A stretch of 64,000 nucleotides of DNA from Lingula anatina (taxonomy: Eukaryota > Animalia > Brachiopoda). The notes below the pieces were generated by a model. It saw nothing but the letters and a program-made list of their open reading frames with translations. It was not told the origin of the DNA and ran no database searches. Shown here piece by piece: positions 589-63,593 of this stretch (the stretch's first letter is position 1; each line of letters opens with the position of its first letter). The position numbers were made by a program, and so were the translations under genes. The stretch lies in assembly GCA_051362555.1 (NCBI GenBank), contig CM120646.1:7874001-7938000 (forward strand), written 5' to 3'.

Positions 589-630
589 CTGTCGTATTTG
601 TAGATTTTGCAGTGTTGTTAGTTGAGGGAT
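589..630 (-). CDS. IgSF gene A, Ser/Thr stalk micro-exon 3 (DPSTNNTAKSTNTT); TM exon presumably lies left of the window
   Basis: tttcAG acceptor, GTAGGT donor, 42 nt, phase 1-1; homologous to the other stalk exons. Confidence 0.75.
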
Positions 631-2885
631 CTGAAAAATCATAAAGAGGCAGTAATTGTTTAACTGATTACCAGCCTAAAAATGTAATTGTTACTGGTCA
701 CTTCATTGGGGTCTTTCTACCCCCTTGCAAAGAAAAAATTTTCAAACATGTGCAGCAATGGAACAAAACACGAAGTTAGGGATGAGGATTATTTTCAAAA
801 TTGGGATTCTCGTAAACCAATGTGAGTACATCACTTCAAATGTTGCCAACTCCTTATGTTTTCAAGACTTTTTGACGCACTTTTATATTACTAGATATTT
901 TACTTTTACGACCTTATGTAAGAGGCATTTTGTACGGGATTTACCTGCCATAATGAATTTGCCTCTGTAAAGACACTTTCCACCCAAACCCAATATAGAG
1001 GTGCAATTGATGTCACAAGCATGTTATTAAAAATATTTACTGCACAGATTGCTAACTGTGTTTGATTATTTTCAGGTCCCACATGAAGAAGCTTGTATAA
1101 AAGTTTCACTCTCCTGGAACCATGAATAATTAAAAATAATTCCAAAGAGAAACATACGTTACTGTCACAAATACAAAACGCCTAACTGTGAAACGTTCTA
1201 CTCACTTTGAAAATTCAGTCATCATTGGTTTTGTTCATTGATTTATCTCCTACAAGTATTACGTTGCTAAAATATTATAATAATCTTCTGTATAGAGCAG
1301 TTAGTTGTTTTTGAGCGACTTTAGTTTGCTTGTCACAGAATATTTAAAAAATGGGGAAAATACACCCTACCGACAGTAAAATAAGCATTAAAAAATGTTT
1401 CCCTTCAAGATTCAAATATTATATCTGATATGTCAAAATATCATGGAACCACAATATATTGTTCGGTCGGCAAAAGAAAACATTGAATCTCTTGCACACA
1501 AGTACTTGAACAAAATGAAACATTTTGACAATTTTTCTATGGAACATACGTTACCTAGCATAAGCCATGACGCAAAGCCCTTTGAGATACAGTTTAAATA
1601 TTTATAAAAACGATTACGTCATGTCTAATTTACCATGACTGAATCACTAAAAATATATATCGGAACGCGGCATAAAAATGAAAATTAAATGGCAAGGAAC
1701 ATACGTTACCGTACGTTTTTGGAACATACGTTACCATATAGGGCTCTTCGCGTAATGTTAAAGACATGGTAAAAATTAAAATTTGAATTTCAGTTGAGAC
1801 AGTCGTGGATTTTTGTTCTATACACATATATGTTTTAAAACATTGAATACAAATTTATTCATTTTTATTTTTTGACACTTCAGCATGTGAAATGCACTTC
1901 TACATGTATATTGGGTTTGGGTGTTTCACCTTCTCACGAATCATTCCCTTCACTTGGAATCGGTGTTTTATTTCATTTTTGTTTTGATTTGCTTTGAAAT
2001 TACCGACCAGGCATTTTAATTTTGACTCAGAAAGTTAAATAAATCCCTATGATAAGCTTCTACGCCTCGATGATTCTGACAGAAGGGGAAAAATTAAAAT
2101 TTCCTAACCACAAGATTGTAGAGACTTGACATTTAATATGGAATATTTTAGTTTCGAAGGTATGCCTTGGTAAAAATGCGTTCATTTTTCAAAAAAAATC
2201 CGATCTCATATAAGATATGTGAATGGACAAGTGTGTAGTCAGGTGTGTCGTTACTAATGAACTGACTACCATGTCTATTGCACTGCTGTATTGTGTATTA
2301 TGCAATGATTTAATTGGGTAGTGCTCTTTTGGACTGGTCCATGCTTGGGTGTGCCAAAGCATGGTTCTGTCAAAAAAGTATCCATATGTCGGCAACACGA
2401 TTTTAATCCCTATTTTCATTTATCAGTCAGTTAAATAGGAAAGATTTGATGAAAAGTGATTTGGAAAAAAAATTCCATATTAAATGTCAAGTCTGTAGGA
2501 TTGATTGTTGCCATGAAGTGGACACCTCGCCTAGTATCCTGTGCTGTGGGAAAATGTCAAATTTACATTTCTAATATCGCTGAACTTAATGCACTTGTAT
2601 TCAACAATAAGTCTTATTGTTTATCCAAATGTGATTGTGACGTCACAAATATGACGTGACAATTCACAATTATAATGTCATAACCGTTATCACTTCTATA
2701 AACAAATAAACTCTTGGTTTAATAAGATGCTGTTGCAGTTGGAGACACTGGGATTTATACTTGCATGATCTTCCAAATGGCTATGCCAGACAAAGCGTGA
2801 GAATTGAATTGCACCAAGGAGTAATTAATTATAAGGTTGACAATTTTGCAGCAAAAGAAAACAATTCACTTCAGATTGCACCTAC

Positions 2886-2927
2886 CTGTCGTATCTGTAG
2901 ATCTTGCTGTGTTGGTAGTTGAAGGGA
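2886..2927 (-). CDS. IgSF gene A, stalk micro-exon 2 (VPSTTNTARSTDTT)
   Basis: ttttcAG/GTAGGT, 42 nt, phase 1-1; flanking intron 2730-3085 duplicates about 440-860. Confidence 0.75.
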
Positions 2928-3342
2928 CTGAAAAAACATAAAGAGGGAATAATTGTTTTCTTAAAGAAAAGTAATTGCTACCATACCTCACGGGGAGCCT
3001 TGACTGCAAGTACTAGTATATTTTCGTAATCCGAATTCCCGTTAACCAATATGAGTACGTCACTTAAAAGTTGCAAACTCTAAAGCATTTTTGAGGGAAA
3101 ATATCATTTAGGGAGGCGTGTGGGAGGCGGAGATACCATTACAGGATTAAGCGGTCTTGCTTTCATGTAGACCCGCCATATTTAGGTCGCGGCCTAGCTA
3201 GCACTCGGCTCTTCGATCTGAATGGTCCCTATCAGAACTTTAACAAATTGTATCCAACAATCAATCTTATTGTTTATCCAGATATGATTGTGACGTCAAA
3301 ACTTTGACGTGAAAATTCATAATCACGTTCATAACCGAATGA

Positions 3343-62183: not shown

Positions 62184-62875
62184 ACAAACATCATCTCCTT
62201 GTCACTAATCACAGAACAGTCTTTAGAGTACTTTCTACGTTTTAACCTCCATTTACATGACATATGTGACCTTTTACTCATAAAAAATGTAATCCAAACA
62301 GATAATCATACATCACGGCACCATTTCTCCAGAATGATAAGACTAGTTCACTTATTCGTACTTAAAAATTCAGCTAACAATATATCACGGTAGATCTCAT
62401 ACATTTAAAAAGAAATAAAGTGGATTATCCTTTTTAAATTGGACAGTGTTTTATTTAGTAGTGATGGTACATTGTCTTCGACTTTCAGGTTTTGTTAAAT
62501 TTCGATATTTGCCAAAAATAAGGTTCTTATACAACAACCACTTCTACACCTATTTACTACTAACGTTGTATAGCGCAACCAGTATGTATAATTTAATTTT
62601 GAGAAATCAGCAATGTGAATCATCTGTATCCTTAATTAAAGATATTACCAATGTACCAACACTACTAAATATACATATTGTGCTATGCTTATATCAGTCC
62701 CGCTTGTCAAAACCACATGAAATGCTTAACATATTTCAATTAGATTTTCTTAATGTTTTAAATGCAACTTTATAAATCTAATAATATTATTTTCTTTCTT
62801 CTTCATTTGGCAATTGATCGATTCAAGAGTGATTAATATAATTAACGTAGTGACACAAGGAAAAAATATAACTAC

Positions 62876-62917
62876 CTGTAGCTTTTGGAGATCTCGAGGT
62901 TGTCGACGTTGAAGGAG
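62876..62917 (-). CDS. IgSF gene F, stalk micro-exon (APSTSTTSRSPKAT)
   Basis: 42 nt, ttcAG/GTAGTT. Confidence 0.78.
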
Positions 62918-63281
62918 CTGAAGTAAAGGATAAGATGATTAATGCATGTGTTTTATCACAGTCAAGTATTAGAAATAAGTACTATATTTGAAACGTTGTC
63001 AACGCCATAAACAGTTTACCGTGTTTCTAAAGTTTCCAAAAACTGTGCATACTTTTCTTCAGATTTAATATACATGTATTTATCCAACATTTCATTTTCA
63101 TGCTCCAGTTTAAAACAGTTGACAAAATTTTGCTAATAATTGAGTTTTTTTAGTAACTAGAGCGATTATAATATTTATCACTAACATAGGTATATGCCGC
63201 TATGCAGCAAGAAGTACTTCGACTATAATGCACGCATTTTCTCAATTACACATCCAAATTAATATCCATGTGTATACATAC

Positions 63282-63593
63282 CGGCACTTTCAGGGACTAT
63301 GATACTTGTCTTGGTCTGACTTGTAAGGGAATCGTGCAGTAGTTGACAAATTACTTCAACTGGGTCTGCCTGGGTTGCCATTACTTCTACTTCACTTTCG
63401 ACCAGAAAGGTGTCTCCCTGGGGTGTCATCGTGTTCGCCGTTGCATTTATGGCGACCTCCATCTGATCAGAACTTTGCATTTTAAACCATTTTATCTCAG
63501 GTGCTGGTCTGCCGCCGTCAGAGGTACAAGATACCCGGTAGGTGTCTGTAGCGACTTGGGGTCCTCGTGTAATCTGGGGTGGATTAGGTCGAT
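63282..63593 (-). CDS. IgSF gene F, C2-set Ig domain exon (V and leader beyond the window end)
   Basis: 312 nt, AG/GTATGT, near-identical to the C exons of B and C. Confidence 0.92.

What the first reader, a model, noticed from the sequence alone, without database searches (positions are those of the whole stretch)
589..63593. Tandem cluster of diversified V-C2 Ig receptors with interchangeable signalling tails: candidate invertebrate paired-receptor/allorecognition system
Seen: at least five V-C2-mucin stalk genes, about six relics and two orphan tails, all co-oriented, and the cluster runs off both window ends. The ectodomains are related, but the C-termini are ITAM-like, ITAM/ITIM-like, GPI or short. 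Known: this combination (clustered, birth-and-death evolution, variable V, opposing tails) characterises vertebrate paired receptors (SIRP, CD300, CD200R, fish NITR) and Hydractinia Alr genes. Inference: a lineage-specific innate immune or self/non-self receptor family. I do not recognise it as a named family.
Basis: partly seen in the sequence, partly recalled or inferred. Interest (0 to 1): 0.92.

Follow-up and report, generated by a model that had tools for sequence, protein, structure and literature searches.

The report
Brachiopod variable Ig receptor gene cluster
This lamp-shell (brachiopod) DNA holds five related genes, plus broken copies, for antibody-like surface proteins with varied tips and different inner tails; they likely form an immune-type recognition family, but an inhibitory partner and self/non-self recognition are not shown.

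Summary
The cluster is real. Five co-oriented minus-strand V-C2-stalk genes (three complete, two cut by the window ends), six V relics and two orphan tail exons are present. The closest proteins are Lingula anatina RefSeq models with generic names, and no close relative was listed outside Lingula. Family V-C2 and C2-stalk splices are seen in RNA reads; a stalk-to-tail splice was not among the rows shown. Genes C and D carry an ITAM (9-residue spacer), B is GPI-like and A is short. A RefSeq paralog has a PDZ-type tail on a V 86% identical to C's. C and D are 90-99% identical downstream of V but only 73% in V, so V and tail modules were recombined. Paralogs differ most at a predicted V-V homodimer face. 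Best reading: a CEACAM-like, lineage-specific recognition family with activating and non-signalling members. The scan noted similar clusters in two other genomes.

The parts
63282..63593 (-). Gene A, C2-set exon (V and signal exon lie beyond the window end)
   Evidence: Pfam C2-set_2 E 3.3e-8; AG/GT
61200..62917 (-). Gene A stalk exons (62917-62876, 61748-61710) and TM exon with a short tail lacking tyrosine motifs (61378-61200); weak likeness to the long tail continues across its stop
   Evidence: tblastn across the stop 24% identity, E 9e-4
48565..56073 (-). Gene B: signal 56073-55995, V 50512-50138, C2 49659-49351, stalk 49121-49035, last exon 48601-48565 with a GPI-like hydrophobic end and no cytoplasmic tail
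46105..46436 (-). V relic with stops and a frameshift
41040..41940 (-). Relic signal exon (altered in a T run) and truncated V relic
39922..40378 (-). Orphan TM/tyrosine-tail exon, frameshifted; part of a 1.7-kb block 95% identical to 12471-14151
27977..37066 (-). Gene C: signal 37066-37012, V 36404-36030, C2 35222-34911, stalk 34640-34599 and 29228-29193, TM/ITAM tail 28377-27977
   Evidence: open frame; V-C2 joint 35222/36030 in 3 of 4 runs; 97.8% to P0014, 95.3% to P0012
18521..24162 (-). Gene D: signal 24162-24108, V 21598-21224, C2 21046-20735, stalk 20462-20424 and 19747-19712, TM/ITAM tail 18897-18521
   Evidence: open frame; C2-stalk joint 20462/20735 in 3 of 4 runs at 84% likeness, tail and 3' flank covered; no RefSeq V above 69%
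14756..15481 (-). Intact signal exon (15481-15427) followed by a broken V fragment; this signal exon is joined to an intact family V in RNA reads and starts RefSeq P0001
13978..14283 (-). Relic signal exon fused to a V fragment
12900..13363 (-). Orphan TM/tyrosine-tail exon, intact frame and acceptor; YxxL-x12-YxxL plus one relaxed ITIM match
   Evidence: read depth 0-2
10337..11083 (-). Relic signal exon and V relic
589..9415 (-). Gene E: signal 9415-9361, V 7658-7284, C2 6562-6251, stalk 5866-5825, 2927-2886, 630-589; TM/tail beyond the window start. A V 3'-end fragment lies at 7008-7066

Best explanation
This is a Lingula-specific tandem family of V-C2-mucin-stalk surface proteins that likely works as a CEACAM-like recognition system, in which the V front face would set the binding partner and the tail would set the outcome. 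Shown: gene structures, relics, family splicing, V-biased divergence and the C/D mosaic. Inferred mechanism: unequal crossing-over or conversion copies C2-stalk-tail blocks behind different signal-V modules. The V domain binds another family member (predicted V-V dimer through the GFCC'C'' face) or a microbial adhesin using the same face. Clustering of C-, D- and E-type receptors would allow Src-type phosphorylation of the paired YxxL motifs and recruitment of a Syk/Shark kinase, activating the cell, most likely for phagocytosis. GPI-like (B, P0007), short (A) and PDZ-type (P0010) members would serve as ligands, adhesion partners or decoys rather than as ITIM inhibitors.
For: Mosaic: C versus D nucleotide identity is 73.3% in V but 91.3% in C2, 90% in the next introns, 95-96% in the last intron and tail exon and 98.6% in the 3' flank; the introns flanking V do not align. 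dS is 0.56 (V), 0.31 (C2), 0.06 (tail). Tail type does not follow V type: C-type V with ITAM (gene C) or PDZ-type tail (P0010, 86% V identity); E-type V with ITAM (P0011) or the B-type GPI-like end (P0007, 89% to B's stalk exon). dN/dS is 0.48-0.63 in V against 0.13-0.33 in C2 for the three C/D/E pairs. 20 of 126 V columns but 3 of 105 C2 columns hold 4 or more residues; 13 of the 20 lie in the FG and C''-D loops. Homodimer model of P0010 22-246: score 0.35, best of 3 controls 0.00; runs agree in at least 93% of contacts, pLDDT at least 89. The mark was reached by 21 of 30 solved pairs and 0 of 23 single chains (microbes), and by 17 of 29 eukaryote pairs. Paralogs match at 1, 3 and 6 of its 14 interface residues against 63-69% elsewhere. 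The ITAM meets the x6-9 definition used for Alr, and shuffles give it under 1% of the time. All 5 tail tyrosines of D are kept in the orphan tail at 46% identity (p 0.018). An oyster Ig receptor signals through ITAM-Syk (PMC6994640).
Against: No tissue, cell-type or challenge data; ligand unknown. No dN/dS exceeds 1 (loops 0.93 uncorrected), and the V-versus-C2 contrast is significant for only 1 of 3 pairs (p 0.004, 0.056, 0.09), so relaxed constraint is not excluded. Loop regions were chosen after seeing the data, and the rows are related. Interface enrichment falls from p 0.002 to 0.05-0.12 if only 60-70 surface residues are counted. The dimer pass may be from memory: nectin, JAM, CADM and SYG relatives are solved, and only 1 of 7 eukaryote pairs without an older relative passed. 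The dimer was modelled on a RefSeq paralog that is not in the window. The ITAM fails the x6-8 pattern, and P0001 has lost its second YxxL. No stalk-to-TM joint was among the 15 of 43 and 15 of 22 joints shown. Most reads are 84-95% alike, so they cannot be assigned to gene D. The PDZ and E-type-GPI cases rest on RefSeq predictions. A Syk or Shark gene in Lingula was not tested.
Confidence: 0.55

Rival explanations
1. A non-immune cell-recognition code: nectin/CADM-like paralogs bind each other by their V faces to sort epithelial, mantle or neural cells, and the tyrosines serve cytoskeletal or endocytic signalling.
For: V-C2 ectodomain resembling nectin, JAM, CADM and SYG-1 by sequence and nectin/MUC18/CD96 by features; class I PDZ-type end in P0010; predicted homodimer with a paralog-specific interface that is conserved between counterparts. 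The P0010-type signal exon is the best-supported upstream loose end in runs X7-X9.
Against: No ortholog outside Lingula; the listed non-Lingula hits are 25-36% generic Ig matches. Six relics, recent block duplications and module exchange are faster turnover than conserved adhesion genes show (recalled). Paired YxxL motifs are kept.
Confidence: 0.2
2. A true paired activating/inhibitory receptor system, with the inhibitory member outside the window or made by splicing an upstream ectodomain to the orphan tail at 12900-13363.
For: The orphan exon has an intact acceptor and frame, a relaxed ITIM (VAYNYI) and low read cover. The cluster extends beyond both ends, and similar ectodomains carry different tails.
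Against: Shuffles give a relaxed ITIM 29% of the time; no strict ITIM occurs in the 7 tails scanned. The orphan tail is homologous to the ITAM tails. No protein of 269-2000 aa matched it among 1099 candidates (weak evidence), and no joint into it was shown. The TM segments inspected have no central Lys or Arg.
Confidence: 0.12
3. An allorecognition locus like Hydractinia Alr: allele-specific homophilic binding marks self.
For: Clustered Ig genes with pseudogenes and ITAMs, as in Alr; predicted homodimer. Gene content appears to differ between data sets: D has no RefSeq counterpart, and the 15.48k signal exon precedes a broken V here but an intact V in reads and in RefSeq. 2 of 4 V differences between B and P0002, and 1 of 4 between C and P0014, fall on the interface.
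Against: Counterparts are 95.7-99.3% identical, and 14 of 14 interface residues are identical in E/P0011 and B/P0005, whereas Alr1 alleles are about 30% identical outside the cell. Lingula is solitary, with no fusion/rejection trait known to me (recalled). Only two assemblies were compared.
Confidence: 0.07
4. A recombination-prone array drifting under weak selection; only one or two members (B, P0010 type) matter, and the ITAM genes are decaying by-products.
For: Many relics; dN/dS below 1 everywhere; tail dN/dS 0.81 between C and D; gene D depth under 1 in runs X1, X2 and X4.
Against: C2 is under purifying selection (0.13-0.33); V changes concentrate on one face while the framework is kept; tail tyrosines are kept between tails only 46% identical; C, D and E frames are intact.
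Confidence: 0.06

Closest known systems
Vertebrate CEACAM family (PMC2832619, abstract seen; PMC11646289, passages seen)
   Same: Species-specific tandem expansion; diversifying N-terminal V domain; ITAM-like and GPI members sharing related V domains; pseudogenes; recombination and gene conversion between members.
   Different: Not shown to be homologous beyond the generic Ig fold. No ITIM member is established here. In CEACAMs conversion keeps the V exons alike, whereas between C and D the tail block is homogenised and V is not. All genes here are co-oriented. No pathogen ligand is known.
Hydractinia Alr family (10.1101/2022.03.04.482883 and 10.1101/2022.03.25.485889, passages seen)
   Same: Invertebrate cluster of Ig receptors with duplications, exon shuffling, ITAMs with 6-9 spacing, and divergent ectodomains on shared TM/tail exons.
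   Different: Alr proteins have V and I-set domains and mostly an Fn3-like fold; these have V plus C2-set plus a mucin stalk. Alr alleles are hyperpolymorphic and tied to a fusion/rejection trait; neither is seen here.
Oyster CgIgR (PMC6994640, passages seen)
   Same: Lophotrochozoan Ig receptor with an ITAM that recruits Syk and promotes haemocyte phagocytosis; the precedent for the proposed signalling step.
   Different: Five Ig domains, described as a single receptor; no variable tandem family or tail exchange in the passages seen.
Botryllus FcoR / Fester family (PMC12582321, passages seen)
   Same: Clustered invertebrate Ig receptors with tyrosine motifs and copy-number variation between haplotypes.
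   Different: FcoR carry canonical ITIMs and hemITAMs, switch them by splicing, and pair with FF genes in a known allorecognition system.
Nectin / CADM / JAM / B7-type V-C2 proteins (RefSeq labels 'CD80-like', 'cell adhesion molecule 2', 'A33 antigen-like')
   Same: V-set plus CD80-like C2-set ectodomain; predicted V-V dimer through the GFCC'C'' face; one paralog ends in a PDZ-type motif.
   Different: Only weak sequence similarity and no 1:1 orthology; rapid turnover and ITAM tails.

Membership tests
Paired Ig receptors (CEACAM/SIRP/CD300/CD200R type) | Clustered multigene family with pseudogenes and lineage-specific turnover | tested here: met
Paired Ig receptors (CEACAM/SIRP/CD300/CD200R type) | Closely similar ectodomains joined to different tails | tested here: met
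   gene C versus P0010, 86% V identity, ITAM versus PDZ-type; P0011 versus P0007, ITAM versus GPI-like; relies partly on RefSeq predictions
Paired Ig receptors (CEACAM/SIRP/CD300/CD200R type) | Activating member (ITAM, or charged TM residue for an adaptor) | tested here: met
   ITAM with x9 spacer in C, D, P0011, P0012; fails x6-8; no charged central TM residue; motif only, not function
Paired Ig receptors (CEACAM/SIRP/CD300/CD200R type) | Inhibitory member with an ITIM on a complete receptor | tested here: not met
   no strict ITIM in 7 tails; one relaxed match in the orphan exon, chance 0.29; the cluster beyond the window was not seen
Paired Ig receptors (CEACAM/SIRP/CD300/CD200R type) | Expression in immune cells | not testable with these tools
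   run tissues are not given
Paired Ig receptors (CEACAM/SIRP/CD300/CD200R type) | Sequence homology to a named vertebrate family | tested here: not met
   only generic Ig matches at 25-36% identity
Alr-type allorecognition locus | Extreme allelic polymorphism of the V domain | tested here: inconclusive
   counterparts 95.7-99.3% identical, which leans against, but only two assemblies; reads at 84-95% cannot be split into alleles and paralogs
Alr-type allorecognition locus | Allele-specific homophilic binding | tested here: inconclusive
   homodimer predicted for P0010 only; allele specificity not tested
Alr-type allorecognition locus | Alr architecture (V + I-set + Fn3-like) | tested here: not met
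   V + C2-set + Ser/Thr stalk
Alr-type allorecognition locus | Genetic link to a fusion/rejection phenotype | not testable with these tools
   no phenotype data
Conserved nectin/CADM/JAM adhesion molecules | V-C2 ectodomain dimerising through the V front face | tested here: met
   (prediction; may be from memory)
Conserved nectin/CADM/JAM adhesion molecules | C-terminal PDZ-binding motif | tested here: inconclusive
   present in P0010/P0013, which are not encoded in the window; absent from A, C, D
Conserved nectin/CADM/JAM adhesion molecules | 1:1 orthologs across phyla | tested here: not met
   the close hits among the best 150 are Lingula; 10 were named

The most novel reading that the evidence does not exclude
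A solitary lophotrochozoan has independently built a germline-combinatorial receptor system. Recombination between tandem genes re-pairs V modules carrying a variable CDR3-like FG loop with ITAM, PDZ, GPI or short tails, gene content differs between haplotypes, and family members read one another's V faces to tell self cells from microbes or foreign cells through Syk signalling.
Probability: 0.2. Interest if true: 0.8.

Novelty: new member of a known kind. Interest (0 to 1): 0.5.

Why it matters
Diversified Ig-receptor clusters with tyrosine motifs are described in vertebrates, Botryllus and Hydractinia, and a single ITAM-Syk Ig receptor in oyster. I found no description of such a family in a brachiopod in the library searched, though a recalled 2018 paper on Lingula immunity could not be read. 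If the reading holds, it adds an independent lophotrochozoan origin of the CEACAM-like design in a solitary animal, where colony fusion cannot be the driver. It also gives a small testable set: three V classes with a predicted binding face, and matched ectodomains with different tails.

Tried and rejected
No whole genome is held, so paralogs could not be counted genome-wide. The ORF at 16740-17213, whose hydrophobic end looks GPI-like, was rejected as an exon: no Pfam hit, about zero reads over 16792-17407, and it matches upstream DNA at 37484-37768. A candidate stalk exon of gene A at 61998-61899 was dropped for lacking AG/GT. Search for the orphan tail on a longer protein: none among 1099 candidates (weak). 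Foldseek of the model returned only antibody Fab chains at 11-17% identity, generic Ig fold, uninformative. Atlas hits were generic V/C2 chordate and echinoderm clusters; a tail-only Atlas query did not complete. V and C2 trees had mostly open branches (3 of 14 and 1 of 13 starred), so they were not used to claim V-C2 incongruence. No run was listed as an RNA holder; runs were offered by species label. Allelic polymorphism from reads was not called, because reads are mostly 84-95% alike and no matched DNA run was laid. Literature: 'Lingula anatina + immunoglobulin + ITAM' 0 papers; 'brachiopod + ITIM + immunoglobulin' 0; six RefSeq ids 0; amphioxus/CTX/nectin search gave only oncology reviews; the two genome papers show no passage on these genes under 'immun' (supplements not read). 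A recalled Dev Comp Immunol 2018 paper on Lingula immunity is not held and may cover this family. Lingula Syk could not be confirmed from passages of PMC5978004 or PMC13344425 (supplements not read). 12 of 13 other long ORFs had no Pfam hit.
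Full report
Observation. Six-frame translation and tblastn show four intact V exons and five intact C2 exons, all on the minus strand. Pfam scores 4 of 4 V exons as V-set and 4 of 4 tested C2 exons as CD80-like C2-set above cut-off. Short Ser/Thr-rich stalk exons and a shared 55-nt signal exon were mapped by blastn. Joined by coordinates, genes B (56073-48565), C (37066-27977) and D (24162-18521) give complete open frames with AG/GT at each internal junction. 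E (9415-589) lacks its TM exon and A (63593-61200) its V, at the window ends. Six V relics, four spare signal exons and two orphan TM/tail exons (one intact, one frameshifted) lie between them.

Identity. The V exon of B is 95% identical to two Lingula anatina RefSeq clusters, and the C2 exon of D finds seven Lingula proteins. Their labels are generic: CD80-like, cell adhesion molecule 2/3, A33-like, mucin-5AC, uncharacterized. They lie on contigs of three lengths (656,199, 154,377 and 617,295 bases), which may be paralogous regions or uncollapsed haplotypes. A phmmer search of 1.84 billion representatives with P0010 gave 835 hits at E up to 0.001. Among the best 150 listed, those above 40% identity are Lingula; the rest are 25-36% matches, mostly to long multi-Ig proteins; I named 10 of them. 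A distant Lingula paralog, P0106, is 24-28% identical to the window genes. Solved relatives are weak matches to CEA, CD276, SYG-1, nectins, JAM, CADM4, CD80 and CD200R. An AlphaFold2 model of P0010 (mean pLDDT 75, Ig part mostly 85-95) has a nine-strand V domain, a C2 domain, a disordered stalk and one TM helix.

Expression. Reads of runs with the same species label were laid on 17650-37600 (X1, X4, X7, X2; 90% likeness) and on 12480-21700 (X7, X8, X9, X3; 84%). The exact V-C2 joint of C appears in 3 of 4 runs (9, 0, 2, 4 reads) and the C2-stalk joint of D in 3 of 4 (3, 14, 8, 0). In X1, X2 and X4 exon reads lie almost all in the orientation expected of a minus-strand RNA. The D-type tail and 3' flank are covered about 6-10-fold in X7-X9, the orphan tail 0-2-fold. 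No stalk-to-TM joint was among the joints shown (15 of 43; 15 of 22); RefSeq models P0011 and P0012 do contain it. Most reads are 84-95% alike, so they show that the family is transcribed and spliced, not that gene D itself is. The main loose end upstream of V in X7-X9 translates (by hand) to the end of the P0010 signal peptide, which is not in the window. The 15.48k signal exon, followed by a broken V here, is joined to a family V in 6, 9 and 14 reads and starts P0001. This points to presence/absence variation or to a paralog outside the window.

Tails. C and D end in YEEL-x9-YMEL, as do P0011 and P0012. This meets the Yxx[I/L]x6-9Yxx[L/I] definition used for Alr (passages) and the x6-12 form cited for oyster CgIgR and Draper (passages), but not x6-8. 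Shuffled tails give the x6-9 form in under 1% of 20,000 trials. The orphan tail has an x12 pair (3.5% by chance) and one relaxed ITIM (29% by chance); none of the 7 tails scanned has a strict ITIM. The orphan and C/D tails are one ancestral exon (68% nt), with 5 of 5 tyrosines kept at 42 of 91 identical positions (p 0.018). They are variants of one signalling tail, not opposing ones. A's tail is short, B ends in a GPI-like signal (judged by eye), and P0010 ends in a class I PDZ-type motif. No TM has a central charged residue.

Exchange of modules. Genes C and D are 73.3% identical in V, 91.3% in C2, about 90% in the following introns, 96.4% in the last intron, 95.0% in the tail exon and 98.6% in 700 bases of 3' flank; the introns on either side of V do not align. 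dS falls from 0.56 to 0.31 to 0.06 along the gene. A coding V exon more diverged than neighbouring introns, at synonymous sites too, is best read as recombination with a breakpoint just upstream of C2. RefSeq models extend this: a C-type V with a PDZ-type tail (P0010), and E-type V-C2 repeats with the B-type GPI-like end (P0007). These models are predictions, and P0001 may be a chimera. 'Interchangeable' therefore holds on an evolutionary scale; alternative splicing between tails was not seen.

Where V varies. Among 13 non-B V domains, 20 of 126 columns carry 4 or more residues, against 3 of 105 among 14 C2 domains (four B-type V, three B-type C2 and a partial V of P0008 were left out; P0014 and P0106 were not included). 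Eight fall in the FG loop and start of G, five in C''-D (regions chosen after the fact, rows related). dN/dS is 0.48-0.63 for V and 0.13-0.33 for C2 in the C/D/E pairs, never above 1, and the contrast is significant in 1 of 3 pairs. A homodimer of P0010 residues 22-246 scored 0.35 against a best control of 0.00, with at least 93% of contacts agreeing and pLDDT at least 89. The mark was met by 21 of 30 solved pairs and 0 of 23 single chains in microbes, and by 17 of 29 eukaryote pairs but only 1 of 7 without an older solved relative, so the pass may reflect likeness to nectin/JAM-type dimers. Seven of its 14 interface residues are hypervariable columns (p 0.002 over all residues, 0.05-0.12 over an assumed 60-70 surface residues). 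Paralogs share 1, 3 and 6 of the 14 against 63-69% elsewhere, and C shares 8 of 14 with P0010 against 99 of 110 elsewhere. Likely counterparts are conserved there: E/P0011 14 of 14, B/P0005 14 of 14, B/P0002 12 of 14.

Mechanism and rivals. The best-supported reading (0.55) is a CEACAM-like recognition family. Paralog-specific V faces bind family members or microbial adhesins, ITAM tails would signal through Src and Syk/Shark, and GPI-like, short and PDZ-type members act as ligands, adhesion partners or decoys. Structure, splicing, mosaicism and V-biased change are shown; ligand, kinase coupling and immune role are inferred. CEACAM features are from the abstract of PMC2832619 and passages of PMC11646289. 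Rivals are a non-immune adhesion code (0.2), a true ITAM/ITIM pair with the inhibitor unseen (0.12), allorecognition (0.07; counterparts 95.7-99.3% identical against about 30% for Alr1 alleles in passages of 10.1101/2022.03.25.485889) and drift (0.06).

Novelty. The genes exist in RefSeq under generic names. Searches found no paper on them, and a review of invertebrate IgSF has no mention of brachiopods (PMC11999971, passages). A recalled 2018 paper on Lingula immunity was not available, and supplements of the genome papers were not read. The kind is known: Alr, FcoR (passages), Xenopus FcR-like (PMC2413239, passages) and haplotype-variable Ig clusters in pearl oyster (PMC9646362, passages). 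The scan's own notes list two similar clusters in other genomes (unchecked) and none for this sequence. Verdict: new member of a known kind, interest 0.5.

Noticed in passing
window 29257-33914: A 4.6-kb stretch in gene C's stalk intron is absent from the matching intron of gene D; it holds a 45-bp tandem array at 29429-29632, and no convincing terminal repeats were found.
   Followed up: partly
window 42653-45742: Inverted repeats (up to 95% over 257 nt, with 21-bp arrays) flank an 88-codon ORF at 43631-43894 that hits Pfam ALKBH8_N (E 1e-7); it looks like the end of a retroelement reverse transcriptase (recalled).
   Followed up: partly
window 15868-16791 and 24310-27639: High-copy repeats that collect RNA reads on both strands and dominate the read tables.
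   Followed up: no
window 16740-17213: 158-codon ORF with a hydrophobic end but no reads and no Pfam hit; homologous to 37484-37768 upstream of gene C's signal exon, so probably duplicated promoter-side DNA.
   Followed up: yes
window 7008-7066: Fragment of a V exon's 3' end with its splice donor, inside gene E's V-C2 intron.
   Followed up: no
window 62792-62863; P0009: RefSeq P0009 ends in sequence 87.5% identical to the intron after gene A's first stalk exon: either a prediction error or an intron-retaining form without the TM exon.
   Followed up: no
P0001, P0007, P0008 (RefSeq): Models with two or three V-C2-stalk units in one chain; all exons are phase 1, so read-through across tandem units is possible, but these may be fused predictions.
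   Followed up: no
window 36030-36078 and 21046-21280, runs X7-X9: Spliced reads with a C-type V end in a G-strand unlike the window's gene C, while X1, X2 and X3 show the window-like end; divergent population, paralog or conversion cannot be told apart.
   Followed up: partly
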